A DNA stretch of 64,000 nucleotides from a virus: the IMG/VR virus record IMGVR_UViG_3300043811_000021, positions 32,001 through 96,000 of that record. The stretch is one strand, 5' to 3'. This document shows positions 19,291 through 33,425 of the stretch, piece after piece. A program made the position numbers and the translations under genes. Below the pieces are notes generated by a model. The model was not told the DNA's origin. It was given only the letters and a program-made list of their open reading frames with translations, and made no database searches. Numbering within the stretch: the stretch's first letter is position 1; each line of letters begins with the position of its first letter.

Positions 19291-19305
19291 AATTTTCAAT
19301 GATCA
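19291..19305 (-). promoter_or_regulatory. boxA-like antitermination element
   Basis: TGATCATTGAAAATT immediately after terminator A; resembles rRNA-operon boxA. Confidence 0.45.
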
Positions 19306-19333: not shown

Positions 19334-19359
19334 CGGTGCTACAACACTTGCACAGACCC

Positions 19360-19431: not shown

Positions 19432-19526
19432 TTTTCCTTTGTCGAGGGGTTTCCCGCTCTAGCCCTATTATATCCCAGGCTGGGGTTTAGCTCTGCATAA
19501 TCCATCTACAGAGTACCGCAAGTCGA

Positions 19527-19856
19527 TTAGGAATGCAAGCCCAAAAATCGATAAGTCAACAATAAAGTTGTCAGATGGATCGCCTGATCGAACCCAATCA
19601 GCACAAAGAACCAGTGACGCTTCTCTTTCTTCCACAAATACGAAGTCCCCCTAGAGGTAATGTAATCGGTCGCGAAATGGAAGACAAACGTAATTATAGC
19701 GAACTTCCAGCCGAAAGCCAAGAATGGAAGAGAGTAAACAGAGACGTGAATTCCAAGCCATGTGTTTCTCGTTGACTTATTGAGAGCCATATTATCAGTT
19801 TGCAGAACAAAATCTGAGATGAAGTGAATCCAGATCAACGCTAAGATGTAGAGCAT
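19527..19856 (-). CDS. DUF3307-like membrane protein
   Basis: [14 protein letters not shown]...Y, HFATDY, GFDQAIH. Confidence 0.8.
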
Positions 19857-20603: not shown

Positions 20604-20906
20604 TTAAACCGCCAGTGCTTCCAAAGCAGCCAGTTCCTTTTCCAGTTCGCTCTTCTTCTGGGCAGGAGTCTTGAGAGAGTCAATCCGTGCTGTCAGTTCA
20701 CGCTTACGTGCAGCGATCTTGTCAGAGTTACGAGATGTGATCTCCCGGCGAATTGCTTTCAGTTGCGAATCAATGAACTCAGGCTCTTCGATCTGTAATG
20801 CCTCGTATTCGGCACGGAGAGACTTTCCGAAGGCCAGTCCAGCAACCAACTCGTCAATGTCAGTTACGCGGTCAGTGTTGAATGTCTTGAATGTTTGAAG
20901 ATTCAT
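20604..20906 (-). CDS. small coiled-coil protein coupled to the TROVE/vWA gene
   Basis: ATGA overlap with 20903..22411. Confidence 0.65.
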   Translation of the reverse strand: MNLQTFKTFNTDRVTDIDELVAGLAFGKSLRAEYEALQIEEPEFIDSQLKAIRREITSRNSDKIAARKRELTARIDSLKTPAQKKSELEKELAALEALAV

Positions 20907-22411
20907 GCTGTTACCAGTTTACCTTTCTGTGCCCCCTTGAGCACTGAGTTGAGAGTTAAAAGCGGAGTGGCCAGGATTTCATCCACAAGTCCGTAGGTTT
21001 TCGTTCTCATAGTCTGCGCCAAATTTGGGATTGAGTAGTAATCCGTTCCGCCCCTTATGTCAAATGTCTGCATTTCCAGTCCAGCACTCTGCATCTTCGT
21101 TGTGAGGCTGTTAGGCTCACCTTCAACGTGGTACAGATATACTGGAACGTCACGGTCAGCGAACGCCACATATTTCTTGTAAACGTCCGTAAAGTACGGT
21201 GCGCTATGTTCCGCGCCGTCAGAAACAATTGCAATTCCATCAACCGAAATCTTCTCCTGAAGCATCCTGTTCAAACCGCAGCCGATGGATGTTCCACCGT
21301 TGGCTGTGATGTGCCTTGTTGCCTTTTGGATTGAGTCCAGAGGCAATCCTGTTACATCAATAGTCATCGGGTTAGTGTCAAAGAATACAAGGTAGACCTT
21401 TCCTCTGCAAATCTTAGCCAACGTAGCAGCAACGTGACGGGATGCCTCAATGGAACGAGACATACTACCCGACTTGTCTGCCAAAACGAGCCAATCGCCT
21501 TCTGGTCCTCCCATTGCCGCAATCTGCTTATCTTGTAGTCCCTGCAACTTCTCTTTCAGAACAGAGTCAGTCACAGACTCAGCAGCTTTGGTCGTCTTCA
21601 GCGTATTCTTCTTAGACGTTGCAGCCTTTGCTAATGCCTGATCAAATGCCCCGCGAAGTGCAGGATTCGTCTTCAGTCCCAACTTCTCCAACATCTTCAC
21701 GTTGGTAGTCAACTCAGTCGCAGACATTGCTCCAATCAACGCCAGAACCAAATCAGGTTCCTTCGCCTTTGCTCCCAATGCTCCCATCGCGATAAGGAAA
21801 GGAATCCGGTAACGCATGATCGATCCTGCCGCTTCCGTAGGAGTCATGTTCTTGAGGTTTGCTACTACCTCAAATACCGATCCCTTGGGAAGTGGTAATT
21901 TATTACCCTTTTCATCCTTACCGAAAAGAACCGCACGAACACGGTCTGCCTTTGTCTCAGGGCGAACATGGCCAAGAGCATACAACTCCCTCAGCGTCTT
22001 CCTATGCTGAATTGCCAGATGATCCCAGCCCTTATCCTGCTCCTTCTCATGCAGGTAATCGCCAATCAACCGGCGCAAAGGAAGCATCTTACCTGCTGGA
22101 CGAATCTCACGCGCAAAATGGAAAGCGCGAAGCAACTCACGCGGTCCAAGCAATGCTAAATGAGCATACGCATTATCCAATAACTCCGAGTCATTCTCAT
22201 ATGCCAAGCCGATAACTGGAAGAGCAACCTTGCTGTCCCTTATCTGCCCATGAGTTCTATCCCAGGAAATCAAATGCGCAAAGAATTCGCCTTCCTGTTT
22301 TACTGCCTGTTGTCCGATAGGAACGTATTCCTTCAGCGCACCGTGAGGACTTTTTGAAAGTTCACTCACAATTCTTTGTTTTGTCAATCCCTGTTCTGCC
22401 ATAGTATTCAT
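20903..22411 (-). CDS. TROVE-like + vWA (Ro60/Rsr-related) RNA-binding protein
   Basis: 502 aa; helical N-terminal region (FFAHL..W......RD..VALP), MIDAS motif LADKSGSM, GGTSIG, IVSDG; size and layout match Ro60. The TROVE call is inferred. Confidence 0.65.
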   Translation of the reverse strand: MNTMAEQGLTKQRIVSELSKSPHGALKEYVPIGQQAVKQEGEFFAHLISWDRTHGQIRDSKVALPVIGLAYENDSELLDNAYAHLALLGPRELLRAFHFAREIRPAGKMLPLRRLIGDYLHEKEQDKGWDHLAIQHRKTLRELYALGHVRPETKADRVRAVLFGKDEKGNKLPLPKGSVFEVVANLKNMTPTEAAGSIMRYRIPFLIAMGALGAKAKEPDLVLALIGAMSATELTTNVKMLEKLGLKTNPALRGAFDQALAKAATSKKNTLKTTKAAESVTDSVLKEKLQGLQDKQIAAMGGPEGDWLVLADKSGSMSRSIEASRHVAATLAKICRGKVYLVFFDTNPMTIDVTGLPLDSIQKATRHITANGGTSIGCGLNRMLQEKISVDGIAIVSDGAEHSAPYFTDVYKKYVAFADRDVPVYLYHVEGEPNSLTTKMQSAGLEMQTFDIRGGTDYYSIPNLAQTMRTKTYGLVDEILATPLLTLNSVLKGAQKGKLVTA

Positions 22412-22426
22412 CCTCCCGGAGATGTG

Positions 22427-22978
22427 TTATGGAAGTTTACGTTTTGCAAGGTAGTCAACAAAGAAGTTATAATCTAACTTCCGCTCCTTACACCAGTCAT
22501 GCGGGTCCATCGAACCTTTCCTCTTATTGCAATTTTTACAGGCAGAAAGGAAATTTGATGTGTCATTCGCCCCACCCGTTTCAAGTGGCTGGAAGTGATC
22601 GATTGACAGTGGAGATACACCCATTTTCACGCCGCAGTACATGCATTTGCATCCGTCAGCGACCCATACTTTCTGCTGCACCGCTCCAGAAATTTCATAG
22701 CGTACCTTGCGATGAAACGCTTTCGCTGGCATCACTAAAATCTCAGGATTATCTGTACGAGCTAAAAAGTCCGTCCACTCTTCGAGAGAAAGACGTTCAG
22801 TAGAGCATTCGCTAATATCTGGGCAATCTGGCAGCATGAGGATAGCCATTGCACCTTCTCCCCCCACTACCAACCCCTCAATTTTAAGGATATTACCCAA
22901 GTCGCCATAAACCGCTGGACGGTGGCGAAGCTCAAGCATATAAAAACGATCTCCGCTAGCCATATTATCCTCTCCCAA
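22427..22978 (-). CDS. HNH endonuclease domain protein
   Basis: CMYCG...SIDHFQP...GG.....NFLSACKNCNKRKG. Confidence 0.85.
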   Translation of the reverse strand: MGEDNMASGDRFYMLELRHRPAVYGDLGNILKIEGLVVGGEGAMAILMLPDCPDISECSTERLSLEEWTDFLARTDNPEILVMPAKAFHRKVRYEISGAVQQKVWVADGCKCMYCGVKMGVSPLSIDHFQPLETGGANDTSNFLSACKNCNKRKGSMDPHDWCKERKLDYNFFVDYLAKRKLP

Positions 22979-22992
22979 GGCACAAAAAATAC

Positions 22993-23158
22993 TGGCTTCG
23001 TGTCGAGTGTGGTTTTGATGTTTTCAAGCAGCCTTGCGGCCCTCGAAACCCCCGCCTCATCATCCCTGCCTCTCGGCAGAATCCCTGACTCAGACGATCA
23101 GGCGGGGGGTTGCAGGTTGCCCTGCAAAACTATCATGTATCCACTCTCAGTGAAGCCA
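22993..23158 (-). ncRNA. Y-RNA-like ncRNA, copy 1
   Basis: TGGCTTC-ACT-GAGAGTGG-ATACATG...CCACACTC-GACAC-GAAGCCA with internal hairpins. Confidence 0.7.
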
Positions 23159-23178
23159 ATCTTGTACTACTTAACTTA

Positions 23179-23295
23179 TGGAGCCGGGTCCAAGAATTGA
23201 ACTTGGATTGTCGATTTATGGAATCGATGCATGTATCCAGAGTTAGTAAGGTTGCCCTTGTGTCAACTTTGGCATTACCGTTTTGCTAACCCGGC
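23179..23295 (-). tRNA. tRNA-like gene (anticodon CAU) carrying a 43-nt motif insertion
   Basis: Removing 23229..23271 (bounded by an ATGC direct repeat) leaves a 74-nt cloverleaf: GCCGGGT/ACCCGGC-T-CCA, TCGAT-TCCATAA-ATCGA. Confidence 0.75.
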
Positions 23296-23308
23296 TCAAC
23301 TTGTACGG

Positions 23309-23773
23309 TCAACTATTCCTACCGCGAATCTTACGGCAATCAATACAGTAGTCCCTTAATCCGGTTTCCTTATTGCCGTCCTTGTGAAATCTTCCTTTTG
23401 GTATCCAATCCTGATGACGACTACACCAAGCCATTCCGTCAGGAGCTATTCCTATAGTTCGTATGGAATTGTACGTTGCCTTACCTAAATGACCGGCGGC
23501 AATGTTGCATCTTTTATGGGAAAATGCTATGTTCTCCAAATCCCAAAAGAGGTCGGCGCTTATTCCTTCCCAAGGTTTCTTGTGTTCTATAGAACACTCA
23601 GAAGATTTTTCAATCTTCTTCTTACAGCGATAACAAGTATCTGCTCCGCATCTTTTTACAAGATCAAACAAGATAAGTCTATAAAGTCTGCCATTCGCAG
23701 TACCAAAAGGCATATTTAGCGTCTCATCTTTTTTCCATGTAGAACTCTTCTTTTTTATTTCCATCATCTCCAT
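23309..23773 (-). CDS. HNH-type homing endonuclease
   Basis: CYRC...SIEHKKPW...LENIAFSHKRCN; C-terminal zinc module. The track's 5' extension overlaps ncRNA, so the start was moved. Confidence 0.75.
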   Translation of the reverse strand: MEMMEIKKKSSTWKKDETLNMPFGTANGRLYRLILFDLVKRCGADTCYRCKKKIEKSSECSIEHKKPWEGISADLFWDLENIAFSHKRCNIAAGHLGKATYNSIRTIGIAPDGMAWCSRHQDWIPKGRFHKDGNKETGLRDYCIDCRKIRGRNS

Positions 23774-23819
23774 ATAATACATGGAGGGAATAAATTTCAA
23801 CCCAATGCTGCTCTTTATC

Positions 23820-23862
23820 CATGTACCCAGGCAAAGTAACGTTTCCGTTGTGTCTTGTCCGG
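23820..23862 (-). ncRNA. Y-RNA-like motif, circularly permuted copy
   Basis: CCGGACAA-GACAC-AACG-GAAA-CGTT-ACT-TTGCCTGG-GTACATG. Confidence 0.65.
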
Positions 23863-23890
23863 TTCCGTTTTTTGCCCCCCACAACTTATT

Positions 23891-24014
23891 TGGTTAGTGT
23901 CTGTCAGCGAGTGTTGCTGGTTGAAAAAGTAGGGATCGAACCTACGACCTATTCATTTGAAGTGAATTGCTCTACCAGTGAGCTATTTTTCCGTGTACGC
24001 TGCCATGTTAACCA
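23891..24014 (-). ncRNA. Y-RNA-like ncRNA enclosing a complete tRNA fold
   Basis: TGGTTA-ACA-TGGCAGCG-TACACG...CGCTGACA-GACAC-TAACCA. Confidence 0.7.
23918..23992 (-). tRNA. tRNA-like domain with anticodon UCA (opal-reading)
   Basis: Canonical D arm GCTC/GAGC; ATTCA-CTTCAAA-TGAAT; T arm GTAGG-TTCGATC-CCTAC; ACCA end; G1-A72 mismatch; no Sec-type long arm. Confidence 0.75.
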
Positions 24015-24022
24015 AATCTTAA

Positions 24023-24084
24023 AGGGTTGGTATCGGACTGCGCTGTTCATGTTTACAAAGCATGTAAGCAGTCCCGTCAACCCT
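24023..24084 (-). ncRNA. Y-RNA-like ncRNA, minimal copy
   Basis: AGGGTTG-ACG-GGACTGC-TTACATG...GCAGTCC-GATAC-CAACCCT. Confidence 0.7.
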
Positions 24085-24091
24085 ATCTTAA

Positions 24092-24207
24092 TCCGCTTGT
24101 GTCTTTTGGCTAACCCTTGCGGGCACAAGGCCGTTTTCGAGGCGGCTTCTTTTTCTCCAAATGAAAATGCTGGACTACCAGCACATGTACGCCAAAACGT
24201 AAGCGGA
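24092..24207 (-). ncRNA. Y-RNA-like ncRNA copy
   Basis: TCCGCTT-ACG-TTTTGGC-GTACATG...GCCAAAA-GACAC-AAGCGGA. Confidence 0.7.
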
Positions 24208-24245
24208 ATCTTTCATCCCTAACATCAGGAAAACTCAAACTCAGT

Positions 24246-24362
24246 GATTAGGTAGCCTCACATCAGGTCGCTCACTTCCAGAATCCGGCACAGTTACAAA
24301 CGGGACGACACCCTCACCTAGCTACCATCTTTCCATGCCCTCATTGGTAAAGCTACCTAATC
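24246..24362 (-). ncRNA. unassigned structured RNA
   Basis: 11-bp closing stem GATTAGGTAGC/GCTACCTAATC; inner TACCA/TGGTA. Confidence 0.45.
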
Positions 24363-24455
24363 TCTGCATCAACAAAACCAACTCTACTACAATGTCCTGC
24401 GCATTGCAAGCACTTTCTAAAACTATTTTCTACTATTTTTATGCTTGCTAAATTA

Positions 24456-24534
24456 TGGTGGGGCTGGCAGGACTTGAACCTGCTGCCTCCGGTTTCGTAG
24501 ACCGGCGCTCTGAATCCAGATGAGCTACAACCCC
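24456..24534 (-). tRNA. tRNA-Arg(ACG)
   Basis: CCGGT-CTACGAA-ACCGG; CCA. Confidence 0.95.
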
Positions 24535-24546
24535 ACTTACAAAAAA

Positions 24547-24621
24547 TGGTCGGGGAGGGGAATCCTGACATCCCAACCTTTCCGCCCCAAACGGAAAGCT
24601 CTTCCTTTGAGCTACTCCCCG
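24547..24621 (-). tRNA. tRNA-Pro(UGG)
   Basis: CGGGGAG/CTCCCCG-A-CCA; TTCCG-TTTGGGG-CGGAA; atypical T arm. Confidence 0.88.
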
Positions 24622-25156
24622 ATAAACTTGGTTACTTCTCGTCCAATAAAACATAGTACTGATCAGGACCATGCTCTGCTGCTGAATTCAGAACATCCAC
24701 CAATTCATCCGCAGTAATGGCATAGTATTTTCTATTTCCATTCACCGGAAAAAACGGGAATAGCGCAGCCATTCGTCTTTCTGATTCAAGATACAGCTTT
24801 TCTGTTTGTACGAAAACCTGTGACATATTACCTCCGATAACACTCACAAATCTCTAACAACAAACTTCCACGGATCGCTCATTACCCAGCCAACAGCTTT
24901 TCCGTTCTCTAACTCATACCAACGATCAACTGGAGATTCAGGTCCAGGCCACGGCTTAGGCCAAGTAGGTCCATCCTCGCCAAAATTAGTATGCGTCCTT
25001 AGCACAGGAATTTTAAGTAAAGAATCTACTTCGTCATTCCTGCCCATTCCATTTTCCGTGTACCCGCATGGCAGAGCGTCAGATAAACTATCAGACCCAT
25101 CATATCCAAAAATCTTTATGAGTAGTTCTTCTTCCTCTGTCATTGCTTCTCCGATA

Positions 25157-25234
25157 TGGTGGACTCGGCCAGATTTGAACTGGCAACACGATGATTTTCA
25201 GTCACCTGCTCTACGCGATTGGAGCTACGAGTCC
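25157..25234 (-). tRNA. tRNA-Phe(GAA)
   Basis: GGTGA-CTGAAAA-TCATC; CCA. Confidence 0.93.
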
Positions 25235-25861
25235 GATTAACGATCTCCAGTCGTTTCTTTCTTTAGATGTCTTCCGACGATGACAATTTGCACATCGCAC
25301 AACACATTTTTCAATCTCTTCCAAAATCCTTTTCATCGAGCATGTTGAGCGTAGGAGCTTAGATATATTGCACTTTTTAACCCCTTTAATATGGTCAAAA
25401 TCCAAGACCATAATGTCCGATTCTCCGCAATCCACACAATGATGTTCCGCCAGATAAGAAACGATGAAAGCCCTTTGTTCCTGTCGTTTAATATCCCTGT
25501 TACGATAAAGGCGCTTCCGTTCTCTTTCCGAGTTATCCCTATAGTGCTGTGCCTTATAAGAACTTTCGCAAATCATGCACCATGCTTGTAGCCCATCTCT
25601 CCGTGCAGCATTTTCTCTAAAATCGCAGCGTGTTTTAACCGTGGTGCATTTGCTGCAATATTTCTCCTTTTCAGGATCGAACTTTGGAAGAAGACTTCTA
25701 CCGTCTTCCGCGATGCACTTCTTGGAGCAAAACCTACGTTTAGCATATTGAGTTTTCCAAAACTCTTTGCCACACCAAGCACATGAATAAGCAAATAGAC
25801 GCCTATTCTTGCCATGAAAAAATTCGATCCTACAATCAACCATGCAATAAGTGTAATACAA
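25211..25861 (-). CDS. HNH homing endonuclease whose 3' end runs into tRNA-Phe
   Basis: CVDCGESD...LDFDH....K...I....EIEKCVVRCANCHRRKT; upstream CxxC modules. Confidence 0.85.
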   Translation of the reverse strand: MYYTYCMVDCRIEFFHGKNRRLFAYSCAWCGKEFWKTQYAKRRFCSKKCIAEDGRSLLPKFDPEKEKYCSKCTTVKTRCDFRENAARRDGLQAWCMICESSYKAQHYRDNSERERKRLYRNRDIKRQEQRAFIVSYLAEHHCVDCGESDIMVLDFDHIKGVKKCNISKLLRSTCSMKRILEEIEKCVVRCANCHRRKTSKERNDWRSLIGLVAPIA

Positions 25862-25884
25862 ATGACTGAAAACATCAAAACTTT

Positions 25885-25960
25885 TGGTGGACCGGGAGGG
25901 GCTTGAGTCCTCGCGCAGACGCTTGCAGGGCGTCCCATCTCCATCTGAAAGTACCGGCCC
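25885..25960 (-). tRNA. tRNA-Ala(UGC)
   Basis: G3-U70 pair; GACGC-CCTGCAA-GCGTC (C33); CCA. Confidence 0.88.
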
Positions 25961-26005
25961 ATTTATTCAACTTCAAACTGTGCCGGGGAATTTCACCCCG
26001 GCGAT

Positions 26006-26093
26006 TGGGGAGATCGGCGGAACTCGAATCCGCGTTGAGGAATTACCCTCCCGGAGCCACAATCCGGTGCCTATCCATCTCGGCCACGACCTC
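26006..26093 (-). tRNA. tRNA-His(GUG) with long variable arm
   Basis: CCGGA-TTGTGGC-TCCGG; C73; extra arm GAGG-GTAATT-CCTC; position -1 is T rather than G. Confidence 0.85.
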
Positions 26094-26096
26094 ACT

Positions 26097-26170
26097 TGGA
26101 GCACTCAGTAGGAATCAAACCCACGTTTTGGCCATACAAAGGGCACGTTCTGTCACTGAACTATGAGTGC
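26097..26170 (-). tRNA. tRNA-Thr(UGU)
   Basis: GCACTCA/TGAGTGC-T-CCA; loop TTTGTAT. Confidence 0.82.
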
Positions 26171-26174
26171 AAAC

Positions 26175-26720
26175 TTACACAAACTGCAAACTCTTCTCAC
26201 CTTCGGAATCAGAGTACAAATACTTACTCCACGCTTCGACTTCCAATCCCATCGAACGAAGGATAATCCTTCCTGTGTGAACCGTGGCTGGGAGAGGCTT
26301 GCGAAGTAGTTTCATTCCAGCCTCTTCCGGCGTACGATCTGCCTTGCGGTGGTTATCTTTGCGGCAGCAAGTTACAAGGTTACTCCAGTCGTTCTTTCCT
26401 CCACGCGACTTAGGAATTACGTGGTCAAGTGTCAAAGAATCACCCTTGAATTCCTCTCCACAATAGCAGCACTTATGCCCATCGCGCAAGTAAATATTTT
26501 TCCTACTCACAACCTGCATCCGAACGGGAATATGTCTATACGTTCTCAACTTGATTACCGATGGTAAAGTTATGCCAGGATAAACTTCAATATCCGTTGG
26601 CATCTCTACCATAGCAGCACCCTTACAAAGTAACGTCAAAGCTCTACGGGCAGCAACTATTCTGATCGGCTCATACGATGCGTTTAATACCAACACCGGC
26701 TTTTTCATCAGGTTGCTCAT
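26175..26720 (-). CDS. HNH endonuclease of the type common in tRNA arrays
   Basis: VLVLNASYEP...LPSVIKL...RDGHKCCYCG...TLDHVIPKSRGG...W.NLVTCC. Confidence 0.92.
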   Translation of the reverse strand: MSNLMKKPVLVLNASYEPIRIVAARRALTLLCKGAAMVEMPTDIEVYPGITLPSVIKLRTYRHIPVRMQVVSRKNIYLRDGHKCCYCGEEFKGDSLTLDHVIPKSRGGKNDWSNLVTCCRKDNHRKADRTPEEAGMKLLRKPLPATVHTGRIILRSMGLEVEAWSKYLYSDSEGEKSLQFV

Positions 26721-26764
26721 ATTCCCTCAATCAATCTCCGCTAGTCTCTCTGAATAATCTTCTG

Positions 26765-26840
26765 TGGAGCCGGTGGAGGCAATCGAAGCCCCGACCTCAT
26801 CTGTACGAAAGATGCGCTCTTCCACCTGAGCTACACCGGC
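26765..26840 (-). tRNA. tRNA-Thr(CGU)
   Basis: CATCT-TTCGTAC-AGATG; CCA. Confidence 0.92.
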
Positions 26841-26935
26841 TTGTCTACGTCTTGCCACTACTATACTATGCACTTTCGTGAAGTCGTGGCTCACTAACAT
26901 CATTCTGTGGGTCATCGGCTTTCCTTTCTTTCAAT

Positions 26936-27010
26936 TGGAGCGGAGTACGGGGTATGATCCCGTGCGCAAAGTGTGGCACACTTCGATGCTTCCAATTACA
27001 TCAACTCCGC
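26936..27010 (-). tRNA. tRNA-Gly(GCC)
   Basis: GCGGAGT/ACTCCGC-T-CCA; loop GTGCCAC; T-loop ATCATAC. Confidence 0.88.
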
Positions 27011-27018
27011 AAATCTTT

Positions 27019-27093
27019 TGGTTCCAGCGCGAGGTTACGATCCCCGATCCTCGCCTTCAAAGGGCGGTATCCTACCAGTTAGATGACGCTGGA
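27019..27093 (-). tRNA. tRNA-Gln(UUG)
   Basis: U1-A72; CGCC-CTTTGAA-GGCG; T-loop ATCGTAA. Confidence 0.88.
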
Positions 27094-27102
27094 TCAAAAC
27101 CT

Positions 27103-27177
27103 TGGTTGCCCATCGAGGCGACGATCCCCGAACTACTGGTCCAGAGCCAGCCGTGATACCAATTTCACCAATGGGCA
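27103..27177 (-). tRNA. tRNA-Gln(CUG)
   Basis: U1-A72; GCTGG-CTCTGGA-CCAGT; T-loop ATCGTCG. Confidence 0.88.
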
Positions 27178-27190
27178 ACAACTAAACAGT

Positions 27191-27284
27191 GAGGGCGCGA
27201 CTCTTTCGCTCCGAACGTCTTACTCAAACCCCAAAGGGGTCACTGCGTTACTCGACAGGACTTACTAGACGGCCTGTGTCCCTC
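27191..27284 (-). ncRNA. unassigned ~95-nt structured RNA between tRNA-Asn and tRNA-Gln
   Basis: GAGGG/CCCTC closing stem; ACAGG/CCTGT; ACCC/GGGT hairpin; possible CGTCT/AGACG pseudoknot. Confidence 0.45.
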
Positions 27285-27293
27285 TCCAAACTT

Positions 27294-27384
27294 TGGCTCA
27301 CGGAGCAGGACTCGAACCTGCGATGGGAGATGAACTCCTCTGTATTAACAGTACAGCGCCTGCTACCAACTCGGCTATCCGTGA
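27294..27384 (-). tRNA. tRNA-Asn(GUU) with long variable arm; first gene of operon B
   Basis: U1-A72, G73; CTGTA-CTGTTAA-TACAG; extra arm GGAG-TTCAT-CTCC. Confidence 0.9.
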
Positions 27385-27401
27385 ACATCCCTAAACAGTT
27401 C

Positions 27402-27429
27402 GAGACCCAAACCTTTCGATCTGGGCCTC
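27402..27429 (-). terminator. attenuator hairpin B (weak U tract)
   Basis: GAGGCCCAGATC-GAAA-GGTTTGGGTCTC followed by GAACTGTTT. Confidence 0.6.
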
Positions 27430-27476
27430 TGCGTTTTACCATTTTTAGTTAGGTAAAAATCTCTCTGAGACCCCGA

Positions 27477-27542
27477 TTATGACCCCCCACCCTGCGGCGT
27501 TTGTGTCGCGGTTGGATTGGCGTTATGGAATCGTGTCTGCAT
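27477..27542 (-). CDS. leader peptide B, MQTRFHNANPTATQTPQGGGS (leaderless)
   Basis: ATG 6 nt after the -10 box; codons match operon B anticodons. Confidence 0.85.
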   Translation of the reverse strand: MQTRFHNANPTATQTPQGGGS

Positions 27543-27548
27543 GAATTC

Positions 27549-27577
27549 AATGTACCTCAGTCCTAAAAACTTGTCAA
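27549..27577 (-). promoter_or_regulatory. promoter of tRNA operon B
   Basis: TTGACA-17 nt-TACATT. Confidence 0.85.
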
Positions 27578-28025
27578 GAACTTTTTTAAGGTAATCCCGC
27601 CAACTGCGTTTCTTGCCTCTGGGCCGGTGGCCAGTTGTCTATTTTTCGCATTAGAGTCCGTATCGCTGCTTCCCGCTTCACGTCCACAATTCCTCTCCCC
27701 TGATCTTTCAGAGAATCAATCAATAAAGAAACCAGCTTTGCCTTTGCCTCAGCTAACGGATACTCTCGTTTAGAAACGTGAATCACTACTTCATGCTTTT
27801 GTGTGTCCTGCGCGAAACAGGTAATCGAGAAAAGAAGAATTGCGATAAGGAATGGTTTCATGCGTCATCATGGCATAGTTCATATAAAGACAATATAAGA
27901 AAAGAGAAGGGACATGCTCTTCAGCTTGCCCCTTCGAGCCTCAGCCTACGCAGCTGAGGGAATACGATTTTGGTTAAATCAATTGTAACGCAGTTCCGCA
28001 ATCTGTGCAGAATTTATTTGCAGCC

Positions 28026-28481
28026 TTATTCACTTTTCCGCAAGTCACACACTCCGGTTTCCTGTCCACCGTTCCCGCCGCCCAGCTTGCTCCAATTGCA
28101 ATCCTTGAGGGCTAGGCGAATACGATGCAGCATGAACCATGCCGTCTTCTGTGTGACCTCAATCGCCCGCATGATCTCGTAGGAACTAACGCCGTTCTTG
28201 CAATTCACTACCAGCCAAACGGCGGTCAGCCATTTATCGAGCGGCACAGGAGAATCCTCGAACACACTCTGAGTCTTCACACTGAATTGCTTGTGGCACT
28301 CTTTCGCCATGCACTTCCATATCCGGCGAGAGGACAGATAGGAAACTCTCTTGCTCTCACAGTGCGGGCAGGTGACACCGTTAGGCCAGCGCATCGACGC
28401 AACGAAATCGACACACACGTTCGGGTCTTGGAAATACCGCGTTGCGGCAAGTAAGCTCTTGGGTAGTCTTTCTTTACTCAT
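28026..28481 (-). pseudogene. IS1595-family transposase, truncated before the DDE domain
   Basis: RWPNGVTCPHC...WKC...C.KQFSVKT.SVFEDS.VPLDKWL...KNGVSSYE...VTQKTAWFMLHRIR; ends before the expected ExDET motif. Confidence 0.88.
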
Positions 28482-29350
28482 TCTTCACCTCACAGAATCA
28501 AAGAAAACGTTGCGGCTGTCTCCGTAGAGGTGTATTATTTCTACAGAGAGAAGCCCTTATGACTCCCCGCGCAACCATGCGCAGGGAGCCTGAAAGGCCA
28601 TAGACTCCGGTGTTAGAGCACCATTGCCTGTGGGTACTACCGTGTGAAAGTACATTTTGCTTCTCCTCGGTCCTTAAATTAGCTTGCTAGGCTGTGGACC
28701 GAATCCGTTGTACCGAAGCCCCGGCCTTAAGCTGGGGTTTCGTTTTTATCCTCCCTTTTATTGGCAATGTAGCGATGCGGATCACGGCCCCGGCCTTGGT
28801 GCGTCCGCGTGATCCGTCCAGCCTGCATGAGAGCGATGAGCGACCACCCTACTGCGTTCATAGCGGCATCAGGTTTTTCTGGGAGACGAACCAGTGCACC
28901 GAGTTGAATTGCCGAAAGGACACTCCGCGAGGTCCACTCGGTTTCCGGCGAAGAATTCACCAATTGCAGAACGACAGACTCCATTTCACTCAGTTCGCCC
29001 CGGACAGTTTTTGCTTGGACAGTGACTAGATTTCCATCTTTGCCAACAAAGACAAAATCGTATCCGGGATAACGCTGCTTGAGGCGTGTCAGATCATCGC
29101 TATCCCTGCGGATTTCCCGCTCAGCGGCTTCGATTGGATTTATGGGAGCTGCGTTCATTCCTTAATCGTAAACATGGATTCATGGAATGTCAAGCCTTAC
29201 GGTGGAAAGTTTTCATGGAAATCATGGATTATCCTGCGCTTTCCTACGCAACGGCATAGTCCTAAATCACGCCGCTACGAGGGTTGTATCCGCTCGGCTG
29301 TAAACCGAAGTCAACAGATTTTATTTGTATGGTGCGTCAACGATATTTAT
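28026..29350. mobile_element. IS1595-like remnant with passenger ORF 28727..29158
   Basis: Truncated transposase, higher GC, and abrupt truncation of the neighbouring HNH gene near 29347; boundaries approximate. Confidence 0.55.
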
Positions 29351-30009
29351 GCCGATTTAACCTCTTTCAGATGAGCAACCTCTATGTATCGCGAATATCT
29401 ACATACCGCACAGAATTTCGGTCGTCCGCTTTTATCATATATCGTTTCAGCATCTCTACGAATAGATGAACGCGCTGACTGCCAATTAGACCGCCTCGCG
29501 AATAGTTCATCCTTCGTTAATTGTCCGATACTGATTGGTCGCTTCACTCTCTCTGCGCACGATGGGCAGTATTTATGAGATTTATAATCTTCCGTCCTGT
29601 AAAATACGTCCCCACATATTTTGCAGTGGCATCCAGTTCTTAGTTTTTTGCCGACAAATACAGAAGAGCACTTTCGGTCACAGAAGTTTCTTTTATTTAT
29701 CTGAGAGATTTTCTCCCTCGGCTTGAGAATTAGAATCCTTCCACACTCCTTGCATATTTTTGGGTTAGAGTAATAGAGATCAATTGCTTCTTGTCTAGCT
29801 AAAATATTTCCATTTGGTATGTAGTTTGGGTGCTCTTTTTTATATCTCTCTTTATCTCTTTCAGTCAGATATTCCCTGTGATCTTCTCGATACTTCTTCT
29901 GGTATGCGCGGCGGCATTCCATGCATCTTTCTGTCGATATTGGGATTTCATGAAGGCGCTTTTGGCAAAACTTCGTTAATCCTGAAAACATTTCTTGACC
30001 ATGCTTCAT
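29347..30009 (-). pseudogene. HNH homing endonuclease truncated inside the nuclease motif
   Basis: Several CxxC modules; ends CAVCRY...EVAHLKEVKSA* without the N/CxxH half of the motif. Confidence 0.7.
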
Positions 30010-30145
30010 ATTCTCTCCTCAGATTGGCGTGGCAGTAGCCTACGCTGATTAAATTCAGTGTTTTCATACCTATTCCTCTTTTTTTTGGTTTTCCTGCTGC
30101 TTAACGTGTTGCAGGAGCCACGGAATAATTTAGTGTAGCACGGAA

Positions 30146-30490
30146 CTACGGAAACCGAGCAATACCAGGAACTTGATCGAATCCAGTCACTCCTTCTCGC
30201 TTCAAAAGCCTCCAACCTCCATCACCTATCCGCATCACTTCTCCACTGTCTATTTCCTCAATCGGATTCGTAACCTTTCTCCAATTCTCGCAAGTGCATT
30301 TGAATTGCATTGAAACAGGAAGAGGACATGGCTCTCCTAGATGCGATTCTTCATTATCACCACAACATCTACGCATATTACATGGAGGGATACATCCACC
30401 AACTAAAACAGCGCCCTGTTTGACAAGACGCTGCGCTTCGGCTCCAGAACGGGCCATTCCAGTTTCCGTTAGTGCCTTAGATAATTTCAT
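30146..30490 (-). CDS. stand-alone S4 RNA-binding domain protein (TyrRS C-terminal-like) with Cys-rich insert
   Basis: L.KALTETGMARSGAEAQRLVKQGAVLVGG...KVTNP......GEVMRIG. Confidence 0.8.
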   Translation of the reverse strand: MKLSKALTETGMARSGAEAQRLVKQGAVLVGGCIPPCNMRRCCGDNEESHLGEPCPLPVSMQFKCTCENWRKVTNPIEEIDSGEVMRIGDGGWRLLKREGVTGFDQVPGIARFP

Positions 30491-30507
30491 TTCCTCTCCC
30501 TAAAGTA

Positions 30508-30594
30508 TGGTGCAGGCGGTGTGAATCGAACACACTATGCCCCGGAGGACGCTTGATTTACAGTCAAGGAGGCTACCATTAGCCCAACGCCTGC
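30508..30594 (-). tRNA. tRNA-Tyr(GUA)
   Basis: CTTGA-CTGTAAA-TCAAG; long arm; CCA. Confidence 0.93.
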
Positions 30595-30600
30595 ACATCA

Positions 30601-30687
30601 TGGAGGAGAGGACGCGAGTCGAACGCGCAGTACCTTTCAGTACGTCTGATTTCAAATCAGGTCGGCTTGCCCATGCCGAACCTCTCC
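30601..30687 (-). tRNA. tRNA-Ser(UGA)
   Basis: CTGA-TTTGAAA-TCAG; long arm; CCA. Confidence 0.92.
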
Positions 30688-30692
30688 AAATT

Positions 30693-30780
30693 TGGCGGTA
30701 GCAGGATGAGTTGAACATCCAATAGCTTTCACTATGTCTCGCTTCGAACGAGGTGGGCTTGCCACATGCCCAATGCTACC
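30693..30780 (-). tRNA. tRNA-Ser(CGA)
   Basis: CTCG-TTCGAAG-CGAG; long arm; G73-CCA. Confidence 0.92.
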
Positions 30781-30784
30781 AAAA

Positions 30785-30870
30785 TGGCGGAAAGTTAGGT
30801 ACTCGAAACCTACACCTCGCGGTGCTCACCGATTTCCAATCGGGTCCCATCCCTGACGGGTTAACTTTCC
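30785..30870 (-). tRNA. tRNA-Ser(GGA)
   Basis: CCGA-TTGGAAA-TCGG; long arm; G73-CCA. Confidence 0.92.
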
Positions 30871-30874
30871 AAAC

Positions 30875-30960
30875 TGGCGGAGCGTACTGAAGTCGAATCA
30901 GTTCAGGCTTTCACCTGTACGGTTTAGCAAACCGCTGCATTTCCGTCCTGCCCACGCTCC
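30875..30960 (-). tRNA. tRNA-Ser(GCU)
   Basis: GCGGT-TTGCTAA-ACCGT; long arm; G73-CCA. Confidence 0.93.
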
Positions 30961-30961
30961 G

Positions 30962-31039
30962 TGGTCCTCGCACCCGGACTCGAACCGGGAATATGACACG
31001 CTTTTTGAGAGCGCCGCTCTTCCATTTCGCCATGCGAGG
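30962..31039 (-). tRNA. tRNA-Leu(CAA), reduced variable arm
   Basis: GCGCT-CTCAAAA-AGCGT; A73-CCA. Confidence 0.88.
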
Positions 31040-31052
31040 TACTTCTAAACTA

Positions 31053-31135
31053 TGGTGCCCGCAGAGGGACTCGAACCCCCACCCCGAAAGACCTGTTCCT
31101 AAGACAGGCGCGGCTGCCAATTACGCCATGCGGGC
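31053..31135 (-). tRNA. tRNA-Leu(UAG)
   Basis: CCTGT-CTTAGGA-ACAGG; CCA. Confidence 0.95.
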
Positions 31136-31147
31136 ACATCTTAAACT

Positions 31148-31222
31148 TGGAGTACCGGGAGAGAGTCGAACTCTCCAAAACTTGCTTTGCAGGCAAGACC
31201 TTAGCCGATTAGGTTCCGGTAC
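31148..31222 (-). tRNA. tRNA-Cys(GCA)
   Basis: CTTGC-CTGCAAA-GCAAG; U73-CCA. Confidence 0.9.
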
Positions 31223-31223
31223 A

Positions 31224-31306
31224 TGGTGCGGGATAAGGGACTCGAACCCTTACGATTTCTCCACGGATTTTAAGTCCGTTATGGCTCCCAGTTTCATCAA
31301 TCCCGC
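31224..31306 (-). tRNA. tRNA-Leu(UAA); first gene of operon C
   Basis: ACGGA-CTTAAAA-TCCGT; CCA. Confidence 0.95.
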
Positions 31307-31337
31307 AAAACTAAAAAGCCCCCATTTCTGGAGGCTT
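31307..31337 (-). terminator. attenuator terminator C
   Basis: AAGCCTCCA-GAAA-TGGGGGCTT followed by TTTAGTTTT, directly before tRNA-Leu. Confidence 0.88.
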
Positions 31338-31362
31338 CTGGTAAAAATCCTGAACTTGGACT

Positions 31363-31434
31363 CTATCCCATAGCCTCTCTCGCACTCAGACTGAGTGAAT
31401 ACGATGATAAAGATAGGGAGCACAAGTTGTTCAT
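31363..31434 (-). CDS. leader peptide C, MNNLCSLSLSSYSLSLSAREAMG
   Basis: Codons 4-17 are only Leu/Ser/Cys/Tyr, matching operon C; ATG 6 nt after the -10 box (GAGGA could also act as a ribosome-binding site). Confidence 0.88.
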   Translation of the reverse strand: MNNLCSLSLSSYSLSLSAREAMG

Positions 31435-31440
31435 GTATTG

Positions 31441-31469
31441 ATCCTCTCATAGATTCAGGATGTTGTCAA
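31441..31469 (-). promoter_or_regulatory. promoter of tRNA operon C
   Basis: TTGACA-17 nt-GAGGAT with a TG extension. Confidence 0.65.
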
Positions 31470-33425
31470 GACTTCTTTTTTGTTATTTTCGTTATCCGCA
31501 CATTCTTTAGTTTTGAACGGACAATTCTCGCCAGACGTGCGATCTCCTTGAGTTTTTCTCCCTTCCATATTTCTTCGTCCGCCAAAAGAACTCTTCCGTG
31601 CTTATCTGTAGATAATTTTAATATCGCAGATGTGATGTCAGGTATTGAGTCTTTCTTTGTGTACTTCTTCTTCAGGATTATCGCCATATATCTCCTCAAT
31701 CCGGGTACTTAACTTTGTCTGGATTTTCCTTTTGCCAGTCCGAAAATTGCGCAGCAAAATGAGCCACTTCATCTGCCTGTTCATCTAAACTCGATGCAAG
31801 ATTTATGGCCTCTTCCTCAGTCAGGTTCTTGTCGCGTTCTACCCATTCTGACAATTGCTGCAATAGAACAGCGTATTGTCTCACAGCCTGTACTGAAAGG
31901 CGATCCTGAGCGCGAATGAAAAAGTACGGCTCCCCTTTATGTAGCCTTAGTAGTGGGTTTTCGTTTGCATATTTACCTGTCTTTGGCATTTACTCTCCTG
32001 CTTTCTGCGATAAATTTATCGAGTTTTTCAGATTCTGGCTTGAGAAACTCTTCTTCAATACGATTCGCTTCTCGTTTGAAAGCATCTGCCAATTCGGTTT
32101 TGTTTCCAATCCAGTATTGGGCAGATTTTTGCTTAATAATATGCACAACGCCTCGGTAGGTCTCTACCTTCGCTGCTACAGATGTCCACTCCATTTGGTA
32201 GTCAAAATAATCTTGAGTAATATCCTCATTGTCAACTTTTTCCATTCCTTGCCTCCATCATTTGATCTGCTATTCTATATGCCCTTTGCGCTATCTTTTC
32301 ATATTCGTCTTTCGTCATAGGCTCCCCTAATTTGATAGAAAGGTTGACTTGACCACTTATAATAGAACCCAGAGCAGCCATAGCGAACTCATCCCGCAGT
32401 CTCTTCTTTACCTCTTCTGTCATAGAAAAAATCTGCTGAGGTGAATCCGAAAAATCGGGAGGATTGATGTTAGTTCCCTCAAATACTAACGGCGGGTTGG
32501 AGTACATCTTCAGGTATTCATTTGCTTCAGCCAATTGAGCGGCTATCTCGGTCAGCATGGAGCATTGCAAAGACAGCATCCCCATCTCTTGCGATCCAAT
32601 TGATTCAGTATCATGAGCATCATTCTGGCACAGCTCATTTGCTTTGCGAATATCATCTGGTTTCATATCTAATCCCACCACCCTCTCCAGTGTTTGCGCA
32701 TGATAGTAAACAACAACTCCTCATCCTGTTTCGCCAGTTTTCCTGCTTCCGTGCCAGAATACTTATAGCGCGGGAACCCTTTGTCAGTGTTTTTGAAATA
32801 TTCGTTCTTAATCAACCTTCTCAGAAGGTGAGAGCATACCCTCATCCTACGCGCACTCTTTTCGCTCCCGATATGATGACCGTACTTCTCGAATCCTTCC
32901 GCCATTCGAGAAATTTTATATTCCATGATCTCCGCGAGAAATGACCAATCAAAATCCGCATCTCTCCAGATCACGGGTGCCCATCGGATCATATTCCTCG
33001 GTACGTACCAAAACAAATCCTCAACGATGGACTTGACATTCCTAAAGAACGTCTTAGGCATCCATCTATACGGAACACTGTAGAATTTACTCATTATTAT
33101 CCACCAAATACCACACCCTATTCATCCGAGCATGGTTCGTTACCCTTGCTGACTTTTTCCAATCCCCAAAGAATACGAATTCTTTGCCTCTGAACAAACT
33201 ACCCGCTGCGTTTCCTAACAATTCAGGATTAAGATTTCTCTTCTCCATCTCAGCAAACACATCGTCTGCCGTTACGCTTCCCTTTCGTTCGGCTATCTCA
33301 ATTGCTATTTTCCTAGCGTCCGCAATCATTTTCCTGCGACAGAAAGCATCCTCTGCCTGAGACATTCCTGATTCCTTCAGGCGCTCACCTTCTGGTAAAT
33401 CGAATCTAAGTTCGCACTGTGTCAT

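What the first reader, a model, noticed from the sequence alone, without database searches (positions are those of the whole stretch)
31307..31469. Attenuator C: a 14-codon block of only Leu/Ser/Cys/Tyr ahead of a Leu-Cys-Ser-Tyr operon
Codons 4-17 are TTG TGC TCC CTA TCT TTA TCA TCG TAT TCA CTC AGT CTG AGT: five different Leu codons, five different Ser codons, one Cys and one Tyr. The operon holds Leu(UAA, UAG, CAA), Cys(GCA), Ser(GCU, GGA, CGA, UGA) and Tyr(GUA). Sampling synonymous codons in this way points to sensing of tRNA isoacceptors rather than amino acids (inference). GAGGCU in codons 20-21 pairs with AGCCUC in the terminator 5' arm and lies just downstream of the sensor block.
Basis: partly seen in the sequence, partly recalled or inferred. 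Interest (0 to 1): 0.9.

Follow-up and report, generated by a model that had tools for sequence, protein, structure and literature searches.

The report
Codon-matched attenuator before phage tRNAs
A soil phage puts a tiny test gene, written almost only in leucine, serine, cysteine and tyrosine codons, and a switchable transcription stop in front of its leucine, cysteine, serine and tyrosine tRNA genes, so it probably makes these tRNAs mainly when ribosomes read those codons slowly.

Summary
On the minus strand lie, in order, a promoter-like site, a 23-codon ORF (31434..31363), an intrinsic terminator (31339..31307) and nine tRNA genes: three Leu, one Cys, four Ser and one Tyr. ORF codons 4-17 encode only Leu, Ser, Cys and Tyr. 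That is the longest such run in all six frames of the 134-kb phage genome. Every one of the nine tRNAs has a cognate codon in the ORF.

I found the same layout in seven other phages, including the cultured Tunturiibacter phage Tunturi_5. The peptide order drifts, but three things persist:
- the Leu/Ser/Tyr(/Cys) codon block;
- the terminator;
- a segment just after the block that pairs with the terminator's 5' arm.

Cys codons are missing from the block only in the two phages whose tRNA block lacks tRNA-Cys.

Best reading (about 0.7): trp/ilv-style ribosome-mediated attenuation, applied here to tRNA genes. There are no expression data, and equilibrium folding alone does not show a switch in this window.

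Six literature searches found no paper on such control. This scan has reported the same kind of element before, on this genome (A, B) and on other DNA.

The parts
31464..31469 (-). -35-like hexamer TTGACA; it overlaps the stop codon of the upstream 77-aa ORF
   Evidence: TTGACA or TTGACG sits at the same relative place before leader C in 5 of 8 phages and before leader B in 5 of 5 examined.
31441..31446 (-). -10-like hexamer GAGGAT, preceded by TGA (extended -10-like). Only 6 nt separate it from the ATG, so the mRNA is probably leaderless.
   Evidence: 17-nt spacer, then 6 nt to the ATG. This is weak by consensus (3 of 6 matches), and the promoter scan did not list it. The transcription start is inferred, not mapped.
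31363..31434 (-). Leader ORF, 23 codons plus stop: MNNLCSLSLSSYSLSLSAREAMG
   Evidence: Homologous short ORFs of 21-32 aa occur in seven other phages.
31384..31425 (-). Sensor block: codons 4-17, only Leu, Ser, Cys and Tyr
   Evidence: longest such run in the genome; 9 of 9 downstream tRNAs have a cognate codon in the leader.
31378..31407 (-). Hairpin within and after the 3' half of the sensor block (palindrome CACTCAG/CTGAGTG); candidate pause or protector hairpin
   Evidence: Folds. A hairpin at this place is also predicted in the relatives. Its role is inferred.
31331..31377 (-). Antiterminator domain: GAGGCT (31377..31372, codons 20-21) pairs with AGCCTC (31336..31331) and encloses two inner helices
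   Evidence: -21.5 kcal/mol with a ribosome placed at codon 10; lost with a ribosome at the stop codon; the best partner of the terminator 5' arm lies at codons 19-22, P=0.10 against shuffles.
31307..31339 (-). Intrinsic terminator: 11-pair stem (31339..31314), 4-nt loop and T-rich tail that ends at the first tRNA
   Evidence: (hairpin -15.8 kcal/mol; 23 nt between the stop codon and the stem; 7 nt from the stem to the tRNA).
30508..31306 (-). Regulated cargo, nine tRNA genes: Leu(taa), Cys(gca), Leu(tag), Leu(caa), Ser(gct), Ser(gga), Ser(cga), Ser(tga), Tyr(gta)
   Evidence: ARAGORN; Rfam tRNA-type matches.

Best explanation
This is a ribosome-mediated (leader-peptide) transcription attenuator that gates a phage tRNA operon. 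Transcription starts at, or a few bases before, the ATG of a 23-codon ORF. A ribosome then reads 14 consecutive Leu, Ser, Cys and Tyr codons, which together call on all nine tRNAs encoded downstream.

- Fast decoding: the ribosome reaches the end of the ORF and covers GAGGCT (codons 20-21). The terminator hairpin forms and transcription stops 0-7 nt before the first tRNA.
- Slow decoding: if any of these codons is read slowly because its charged tRNA (host plus phage) is scarce, the ribosome stalls upstream. GAGGCT pairs with AGCCTC in the terminator's 5' arm, the terminator cannot form, and RNA polymerase reads into the tRNA genes.

The result is negative feedback: these tRNAs are made on demand.

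Shown here: the sequence parts, their conservation, and their covariation with the cargo. Inferred: translation of the ORF, the leaderless start, the kinetic switch and the direction of control.
For: (1) Anatomy: promoter-like site, ORF, alternative pairing, terminator and tRNAs in that order.

(2) Specificity: 13 of the leader's 22 internal codons are decodable by block C under strict wobble rules, against 2 by block B and 3 by block A. Leaders B and A prefer their own blocks (12 of 20 and 15 of 22). The same diagonal is highest or tied in all five genomes (G001 leader A ties, 10 against 10), and it also holds in Tunturi_5 (14/4/7, 2/22/6, 4/11/17).

(3) Coverage: 66 of 68 block-C tRNAs across eight phages have a cognate codon in their own leader.

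(4) Conservation without sequence conservation: the tRNA genes of G000 and G001 are not alignable by blastn and the leader peptides differ, yet the codon block, the terminator and the ORF-to-terminator spacing of 18-28 nt persist.

(5) Covariation with cargo: a Cys codon is in the sensor block of the 6 phages that have tRNA-Cys and absent in the 2 that lack it, G001 and L080. L080, whose block continues into Asp and Glu tRNAs, has GAT, GAA and GAG in its leader.

(6) Antiterminator: the best partner of the terminator's 5' arm lies at codons 16-24, just after the sensor block, in 8 of 8 phages and with different sequences. Per-sequence P against shuffles was 0.10, 0.12, <0.001, 0.002, 0.095, 0.054, 0.21 and 0.087. 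Fisher's method over seven of them, leaving out L050 as too close to G000, gives 8e-6.

(7) With a ribosome placed at codon 10 the antiterminator is in the minimum-energy fold of the pre-terminator transcript in all five genomes tested. With a ribosome at the stop codon it is lost in four of the five; in L051 only its outer helix remains.
Against: - There are no expression data: no RNA run holds this DNA.
- Equilibrium folding of the full leader keeps the terminator favoured even with a stalled ribosome in G000 (probability at least 0.73), L050 (at least 0.80) and G001 (at least 0.64). Only L051 and L052 drop sharply, to 0.01 and 0.13. The switch would therefore have to be kinetic.
- In this window the closing helix of the antiterminator has only 6 pairs (P=0.10). 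It also forms in the ribosome-free partial transcript, so the default state is unclear.
- The -10 hexamer matches the consensus at 3 of 6 positions and the promoter scan did not list it. There is no Shine-Dalgarno at a consistent distance across relatives.
- The match is imperfect. L051 has CTA but no Leu(tag). Tunturi_5 has Leu(cag) but no CTG, and has TCA and CTA without a matching phage tRNA found. In L052, Met, Asp and Glu tRNAs follow the block, and its leader has no Asp or Glu codon. In one further phage, L063, this tRNA block has no leader of its own.
Confidence: 0.7

Rival explanations
1. Same attenuator hardware, but it reports general translation capacity or amino-acid starvation rather than the supply of the particular tRNAs. 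Any slowing of ribosomes (toxins, starvation, host shut-off) opens all three tRNA operons, and the codon match is only a by-product of the amino-acid match.
For: Given the peptide, random synonymous codons already cover all block-C isoacceptors in 26-51% of trials per genome, and the number of distinct Leu plus Ser codons is only weakly unusual (P 0.05-0.23). The Anabaena tRNA array is induced by general translational stress (PMC8421152, abstract read).
Against: A general sensor would not need three leaders with disjoint amino-acid sets that each follow their own cargo. In leaders A and B, codons of families split between blocks (Thr, Arg, Gly) match the own-block isoacceptor 53 times, the other block's 18 times and neither 6 times. 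The Cys codon follows tRNA-Cys in 8 of 8 phages.
Confidence: 0.14
2. The ORF is not translated. The region is just the 5' leader of a tRNA precursor, with a leaky constitutive terminator or processing hairpin, and the codon block is a composition effect.
For: The ORF is tiny, has no consistent Shine-Dalgarno and has a weak -10. The terminator stays thermodynamically dominant in the models for this window.
Against: An open frame of 21-32 codons with an in-frame Leu/Ser/Tyr(/Cys) block is kept in 8 phages whose nucleotide sequences have diverged. The run is unique in six frames of the genome. Two other leaders in the same genome match two other tRNA sets. The stop-to-terminator distance is kept at 18-28 nt.
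Confidence: 0.08
3. The ORF encodes a functional small peptide (for example a hydrophobic membrane peptide), and its place before the tRNAs is incidental.
For: The peptide is Leu/Ser-rich and could be amphipathic. This was not tested.
Against: Residue order is not conserved: identity is 0.26-0.65 in most pairs despite the low-complexity composition. Between G000 and its closest relative L050 the same codons appear in a different order. The sibling leaders have unrelated compositions that follow their own tRNAs.
Confidence: 0.03
4. A ribosome-free, T-box-like RNA in which tRNA anticodons pair directly with the row of codons.
For: A row of codons cognate to the downstream tRNAs could in principle act as specifiers.
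Against: The permissive Rfam scan of 16000..33000 listed no T-box or any other cis-regulatory leader family. A conserved start codon, stop codon and frame are not needed for such a mechanism, yet they are kept.
Confidence: 0.02

Closest known systems
Multivalent leader-peptide attenuators of enterobacterial amino-acid operons (ilvGMEDA leader for Ile/Val/Leu, thr leader for Thr/Ile; also trp, his, leu, phe leaders). Named from my own knowledge.
   Same: A short ORF rich in regulatory codons, an intrinsic terminator before the regulated genes, an antiterminator that uses the terminator's 5' arm and is masked when the ribosome reaches the end of the ORF, and a terminator more stable than the antiterminator, so control is kinetic.
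   Different: The regulated genes are tRNAs, not biosynthetic enzymes, so the sensed molecule and the product are the same kind of molecule. The block samples 4-6 Leu and 2-6 Ser codons rather than repeating one or two codons. The ORF probably starts at the 5' end of the transcript (leaderless). There is no Rfam leader-family match. The element sits in a phage.
Inducible long tRNA array (trn operon) of Anabaena sp. PCC 7120 (PMC8421152, abstract and a term search of the text; PMC10272220, abstract from a search listing only)
   Same: A supernumerary, horizontally spread tRNA array that is silent by default and switched on when translation is impaired.
   Different: PMC8421152 has no occurrence of 'attenuat', 'leader' or 'terminator'. 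The abstract of PMC10272220 attributes repression to the protein TrcR. No codon-matched ORF is described there.
T-box riboswitches
   Same: Transcription attenuation that reads tRNA status codon-specifically through a terminator/antiterminator choice.
   Different: T-boxes bind tRNA directly without a ribosome, have a conserved T-box sequence and control aminoacyl-tRNA synthetase and amino-acid genes. No T-box match here.
Stalling-peptide attenuators of antibiotic-resistance genes (for example mef(E)/mel in PMC4335068 and msrD in 10.1101/2021.11.29.470318; abstracts in search listings only)
   Same: A leader ORF whose ribosome stalling opens a downstream terminator.
   Different: There the stall is caused by a drug acting on the ribosome and a specific nascent peptide. 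Here the likely cause is the supply of cognate tRNA.
Sibling attenuators A and B of this genome, and similar elements this scan reported on other phages (e1-6154685, e1-6154676, e1-371813, e1-5714076 and others)
   Same: Same architecture and the same codon-to-cargo logic.
   Different: Different amino-acid sets. These are unchecked AI notes, not published work.

Membership tests
Ribosome-mediated (leader-peptide) transcription attenuator | Short ORF upstream of the regulated genes, enriched in the regulatory codons | tested here: met
   23-codon ORF with 14 consecutive Leu/Ser/Cys/Tyr codons. Kept in 8 phages.
Ribosome-mediated (leader-peptide) transcription attenuator | Intrinsic terminator between the ORF and the regulated genes | tested here: met
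   11-pair hairpin plus T tract at 31339..31307, ending at the first tRNA. Present in all 8 phages with different stem sequences. Predicted, not assayed.
Ribosome-mediated (leader-peptide) transcription attenuator | Mutually exclusive antiterminator that uses the terminator's 5' arm and lies where a ribosome finishing the ORF masks it | tested here: met
   GAGGCT/AGCCTC pairing. The partner lies at codons 16-24 in 8 of 8 phages; combined P 8e-6. In this window GAGGCT lies 7-12 nt before the stop codon, within a ribosome footprint.
Ribosome-mediated (leader-peptide) transcription attenuator | Termination shown to depend on translation of the leader and on supply of the cognate charged tRNA | not testable with these tools
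   No RNA data. Equilibrium models are inconclusive for this window.
Ribosome-mediated (leader-peptide) transcription attenuator | Regulated genes make or transport the sensed amino acid (the classical cargo) | tested here: not met
   The cargo is nine tRNA genes. This is what makes it a variant rather than an ordinary member.
Rfam leader families (Leu, Thr, His, Trp and other curated leaders) | Match to the family covariance model | tested here: not met
   The permissive scan of 16000..33000 at E up to 1 listed no leader family. The only non-tRNA-type match in the element is a chance-level ctRNA_p42d hit on the terminator hairpin (22.9 bits against a 50-bit threshold).
T-box riboswitch | Match to the T-box model (specifier loop plus conserved T-box sequence) | tested here: not met
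   No T-box match.
Repressor-controlled long tRNA array (Anabaena trn/TrcR type) | A TrcR-like repressor and its operator at the array promoter | not tested
   I read only the abstract of PMC10272220 and did not search for a repressor or operator.

The most novel reading that the evidence does not exclude
The three codon-matched leaders form a tRNA-pool homeostat that works at the level of single isoacceptors. Each leader is a row of test codons, one or more per tRNA in its operon. Loss of any one tRNA species, through a poor match between host tRNA pool and phage codon usage or through host anticodon nucleases and other tRNA-cutting defences, would reopen only the operon that can replace it. 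The leaderless start would give every transcript one pioneer ribosome that performs the test. This would be a new logic of gene control, with the decoding machinery measuring and resupplying its own adaptors. It would also explain how tRNA-rich phages avoid making 30 to 40 tRNAs when the host already provides them.
Probability: 0.35. Interest if true: 0.9.

Novelty: new variant of a known kind. Interest (0 to 1): 0.8.

Why it matters
Why phages carry large tRNA sets, and how they control them, is an old open question. The usual answers (codon-usage compensation, escape from tRNA-cutting defences) say nothing about regulation.

A leader-peptide attenuator whose test codons are the codons read by the tRNAs behind it would be direct supply-and-demand control of tRNA synthesis. 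It would extend a textbook mechanism from amino-acid enzymes to the adaptors themselves.

In six full-text searches I found no paper that describes this. The element is also present in a cultured phage-host pair: Tunturi_5 on Tunturiibacter psychrotolerans X4BP1 (PMC11924767). The idea can therefore be tested at the bench now.

Such elements could also serve as compact, codon-specific sensors of tRNA availability.

Tried and rejected
Searches for relatives that led nowhere:
- The 97-aa protein upstream of the leader had no relative in viral contigs: 72 pattern matches, none confirmed.
- RNase H (34295-34798) gave 46 loci, but only L019 and L028 had tRNA arrays. Of the records behind 32 of those loci, 6 had any tRNA match at E up to 1e-6 and none had an array.
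- The S4-domain protein gave one locus, with scattered tRNAs.
- blastn of block C against the loci then held found nothing below E 1e-3. A short-word search found only chance-level matches of 13-19 nt.
- A 15-nt leader motif scanned over viral contigs matched 40 stretches. Only one (L151, the contig of L051) had a tRNA array.
- blastn of 28000-35900 against GenBank phages gave only matches covering 1% of the query, such as tRNA-Leu and an RNase H piece.

Analyses dropped:
- The MAFFT alignment of five leaders (A1) did not line up the helices. I therefore ran no alignment-based covariation count (count of structure pairs and fold_alignment were not used) and compared helices sequence by sequence.
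- A dedicated leader for the Asp and Glu tRNAs of L050, L051, L052 and G001 was looked for and not found.

Expression: no RNA holder was listed for 29000-34000. Two DNA runs were listed; one may be the source sample and the other holds a small share.

Readings rejected: chance; a T-box or a known Rfam leader; a functional micropeptide; an untranslated leader (see the rival explanations).

Supplementary files of PMC11924767 and PMC8421152 were not seen. They may hold tRNA tables or transcript maps that bear on the Tunturi_5 and Anabaena statements.

Full report
WHAT IS THERE

The window is bases 32001-96000 of a 134,145-bp IMG/VR virus record, estimated complete and 46% G+C. All 26 tRNA genes that ARAGORN finds in the genome lie in the window on the minus strand. 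Rfam adds three more.

At the finding's coordinates the minus strand reads in this order:
- TTGACA (31469..31464), a 17-nt spacer, GAGGAT (31446..31441), then 6 nt;
- an ATG (31434) that opens a 23-aa ORF, MNNLCSLSLSSYSLSLSAREAMG;
- 23 nt after its stop codon, an 11-pair hairpin (31339..31314) with a T-rich tail;
- 7 nt later, the first of nine closely spaced tRNA genes (31306..30508): Leu(taa), Cys(gca), Leu(tag), Leu(caa), Ser(gct), Ser(gga), Ser(cga), Ser(tga), Tyr(gta).

IS IT MORE THAN CHANCE?

The 14-codon run of Leu/Ser/Cys/Tyr is the longest in all six frames of the whole genome. The next longest is 9, and about 0.001 runs of 14 or more are expected from the six-frame frequency of these codons, 0.258.

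Among 28,228 windows of 22 codons drawn from 103 ORFs of at least 150 aa, 0.5% had 13 or more codons decodable by the nine tRNAs and 0.04% touched all nine.

Under strict wobble rules, 13 of the leader's 22 internal codons are decodable by its own block, 2 by the tRNAs of block B and 3 by those of block A. Each of the nine tRNAs has at least one cognate codon in the leader.

The two other tRNA blocks of the genome have their own short ORF and terminator, and these prefer their own cargo: 12 of 20 codons for leader B and 15 of 22 for leader A.

RELATIVES

No close relative exists among GenBank phages at the DNA level. Two protein anchors found relatives: RNase H and an HNH endonuclease gene that sits inside tRNA block B.

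They led to seven further distinct phages in which the 5' edge of the Leu/Ser/Tyr block is present with a leader:
- L050 (the same sequence again as L056);
- L051 (again as L151);
- L052;
- G001, whose block runs across the terminal repeat of the record (L049 plus L019; again as L062);
- L080;
- L090;
- the cultured Tunturiibacter phage Tunturi_5, PP885688.1 (L176).

Three more loci (L057, L058, L060) are cut inside the block and cannot be judged. One phage, L063, has the block directly behind other tRNAs and without a leader of its own.

All eight leaders are ORFs of 21-32 aa with a Leu/Ser/Tyr(/Cys) block. The longest uninterrupted runs are 14, 14, 7, 10, 13, 11, 4 and 15 codons, and Leu+Ser+Cys+Tyr make up 10-16 of 20-31 internal codons. 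All eight have a terminator hairpin whose tail ends 2-9 nt before the first tRNA. The stop codon lies 18-28 nt before that hairpin.

The tRNA genes of G000 and G001 are too diverged for blastn. The leader peptides share 0.26-0.65 of residues in most pairs despite their low complexity. Between G000 and its closest relative L050, the same codons appear in a different order.

What is conserved is therefore the codon content, the frame and the RNA architecture, not the peptide.

COVARIATION WITH THE CARGO

I read the anticodons of three tRNAs that ARAGORN missed (one in L052, two in L050) by eye from Rfam-supported tRNA matches. With them, 66 of 68 block tRNAs in the eight phages have a cognate codon in their own leader. 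The two misses are Met(cat) in G001, apart from the start codon, and Leu(cag) in Tunturi_5.

A Cys codon lies in the sensor block of the six phages that carry tRNA-Cys in the block. It is absent from the block in the two that do not, G001 and L080. L080 has one TGC, but in the tail that forms the antiterminator strand. How many independent gains or losses this represents is unknown.

L080's block runs on into Asp and Glu tRNAs, and its leader holds GAT, GAA and GAG.

Results against a perfect match:
- L051 has CTA but Leu(gag) and Leu(cag) instead of Leu(tag).
- Tunturi_5 has TCA and CTA without a matching phage tRNA found.
- L052 has Met, Asp and Glu tRNAs behind the block, with no dedicated leader found for them and no Asp or Glu codon in its leader C.

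ISOACCEPTORS OR AMINO ACIDS?

I kept each peptide and redrew synonymous codons from the phage's own usage or uniformly. Full coverage of the block's tRNAs arose in 26-51% of trials per genome. The observed number of distinct Leu plus Ser codons had P 0.05-0.23 with phage usage.

So for leader C the codon-level claim is consistent but not separable from amino-acid-level matching. With five Leu and seven Ser positions, near-full sampling is expected anyway.

The better evidence comes from leaders A and B, where Thr, Arg and Gly isoacceptors are split between blocks. Their codons match the own-block isoacceptor 53 times, the other block's 18 times and neither 6 times. This is after setting aside the 16 leader-C cells (15 'other block', 1 'neither'), because block C has no isoacceptor of these families. 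The five genomes are related and so not independent.

One detail points the same way: all 10 Tyr codons in the eight C leaders are TAT, the wobble codon for the GUA anticodon.

STRUCTURE AND MECHANISM

GAGGCT (codons 20-21) pairs with AGCCTC in the terminator's 5' arm and closes a domain with two inner helices (-21.7 kcal/mol, z -2.1).

In all eight phages the best partner of the terminator's 5' arm lies at codons 16-24, directly after the sensor block, and its sequence differs between phages as the terminator arm changes. Per-sequence P against mononucleotide shuffles was 0.10, 0.12, <0.001, 0.002, 0.095, 0.054, 0.21 and 0.087. Fisher's method over seven, omitting L050, gives 8e-6.

I then folded the transcript up to the terminator loop:
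- With a ribosome footprint at codon 10, the antiterminator forms in all five genomes tested (-21 to -31 kcal/mol).
- With the footprint at the stop codon, it is lost in four of the five. In L051, whose ORF runs further, only the outer helix remains in the model, spanning the ribosome.

In this window a stall at codons 4-15 leaves GAGGCT free (taking a footprint of about 12 nt beyond the A-site codon). Those twelve codons already include a cognate codon for all nine tRNAs.

Full-length equilibrium models speak against a simple thermodynamic switch. The terminator keeps a probability of at least 0.73 in G000, 0.80 in L050 and 0.64 in G001 whatever the ribosome position. Only L051 and L052 fall, to 0.01 and 0.13. 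As I recall for the trp attenuator, a terminator more stable than its antiterminator is normal, and the choice is made kinetically during transcription. That cannot be computed here.

A hairpin in the 3' half of the sensor block (31407..31378) is predicted here and, at the same place, in the relatives' folds. It may act as a pause or protector element, which is inference.

The ATG lies 5-10 nt after the -10-like hexamer in the five phages with a recognisable TTGACA/G promoter, which suggests a leaderless mRNA. The -10 is weak, and the consensus scan did not list this promoter.

COMPARISON WITH WHAT IS KNOWN

The element works like the multivalent leader-peptide attenuators of enterobacterial amino-acid operons. 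It is not a member of any Rfam leader family or of the T-box family. Its cargo is tRNA genes.

Six full-text searches found no description of a leader-peptide attenuator before tRNA genes.
- The nearest item is the Anabaena trn array, induced under translational stress. PMC8421152 (abstract read) has no occurrence of 'attenuat', 'leader' or 'terminator' in a term search. The abstract of PMC10272220, seen in a search listing, names a repressor, TrcR.
- A survey of premature terminators (PMC2965389, passages read) does not mention tRNA genes as attenuated targets.
- The paper on Tunturi phages (PMC11924767, passages read) reports 43 tRNA genes in Tunturi 5 and has no occurrence of 'attenuat' or 'leader'.

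Subscription journals and supplementary files were not searchable.

Earlier notes of this scan report the same kind of element for blocks A and B of this genome and on several other phages. These are unchecked AI notes. I used them only as pointers and rebuilt the evidence for C independently.

VERDICT

- The attenuator reading is well supported by comparative evidence (about 0.7).
- The isoacceptor-level claim is plausible but only weakly supported for this leader.
- Conditional termination remains to be shown.
- It is a new variant of a known kind of control, and it can now be tested in a cultured phage.

Noticed in passing
L176 (PP885688.1 228148-252663): 3009-3167, 11075-11240, 23426-23640: The cultured jumbo phage Tunturi_5 has all three codon-matched leaders. 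Leader C is unannotated. The probable leader A is annotated as hypothetical protein gp308 (49 aa); it is rich in Asp codons, and in this phage tRNA-Asp sits in block A.
   Followed up: partly
window 18866-18951 (-): ARAGORN at default settings calls this 86-nt gene tRNA-Stop(tta), but at a lower threshold calls it Lys(ttt). Relatives have Lys(ttt) at the same slot after Lys(ctt). Rfam gives only a weak tmRNA-type match (28.6 bits). A suppressor tRNA is therefore doubtful.
   Followed up: partly
window 23922-23992 (-); L051 11140-11213: An ordinary-length tRNA (65 bits on the tRNA model) with anticodon TCA, labelled SeC by ARAGORN, lies at the end of block B here and in L051. It is a possible opal-reading tRNA.
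   Followed up: no
window 26175-26720, 23309-23884, 22427-22978, 16943-17584, 29347-30009 (-): HNH endonuclease genes are scattered inside and between the tRNA blocks. The one inside block B is kept at the same place (between Thr(cgt) and the next Thr tRNA) in G001, L050-L052 and Tunturi_5.
   Followed up: partly
window 30146-30490 (-): A 114-aa ORF with an N-terminal S4 RNA-binding domain starts 18 nt after tRNA-Tyr and may be co-transcribed with block C. The one relative found (L048) also lies among tRNA genes.
   Followed up: no
window 30508-31306 (-): Block C gathers all the long-variable-arm (class II) tRNAs of the phage (Leu, Ser, Tyr; 78-88 nt) plus Cys. The same grouping holds in the relatives. 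The class assignment rests on gene length and general knowledge.
   Followed up: no
L028 12136-12300: A more distant phage with one 25-tRNA array has, before its first tRNA, a 27-codon ORF of mixed composition (MDRKALSCWYTSLGNIAEAQPHLRPGA) followed by a terminator-like hairpin. It may be a single general leader for a mixed array.
   Followed up: no
eight C leaders (window 31363-31434; L050; L051; L052; L049; L080; L090; L176): All 10 Tyr codons are TAT and none is TAC, although the phage tRNA has anticodon GTA, for which TAT is the wobble codon.
   Followed up: no
L063 5483-6030: In this metagenome contig the Cys/Leu/Ser/Tyr block follows Thr(ggt), Ile(gat) and Gly(tcc) by about 70 nt, without its own leader. 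A tRNA-like gene with anticodon ACA heads the row.
   Followed up: no
L050 12567-12681: Rfam gives a sub-threshold YrlA (Y RNA-like) match (41 bits against 69) between tRNA blocks B and A of the closest relative.
   Followed up: no
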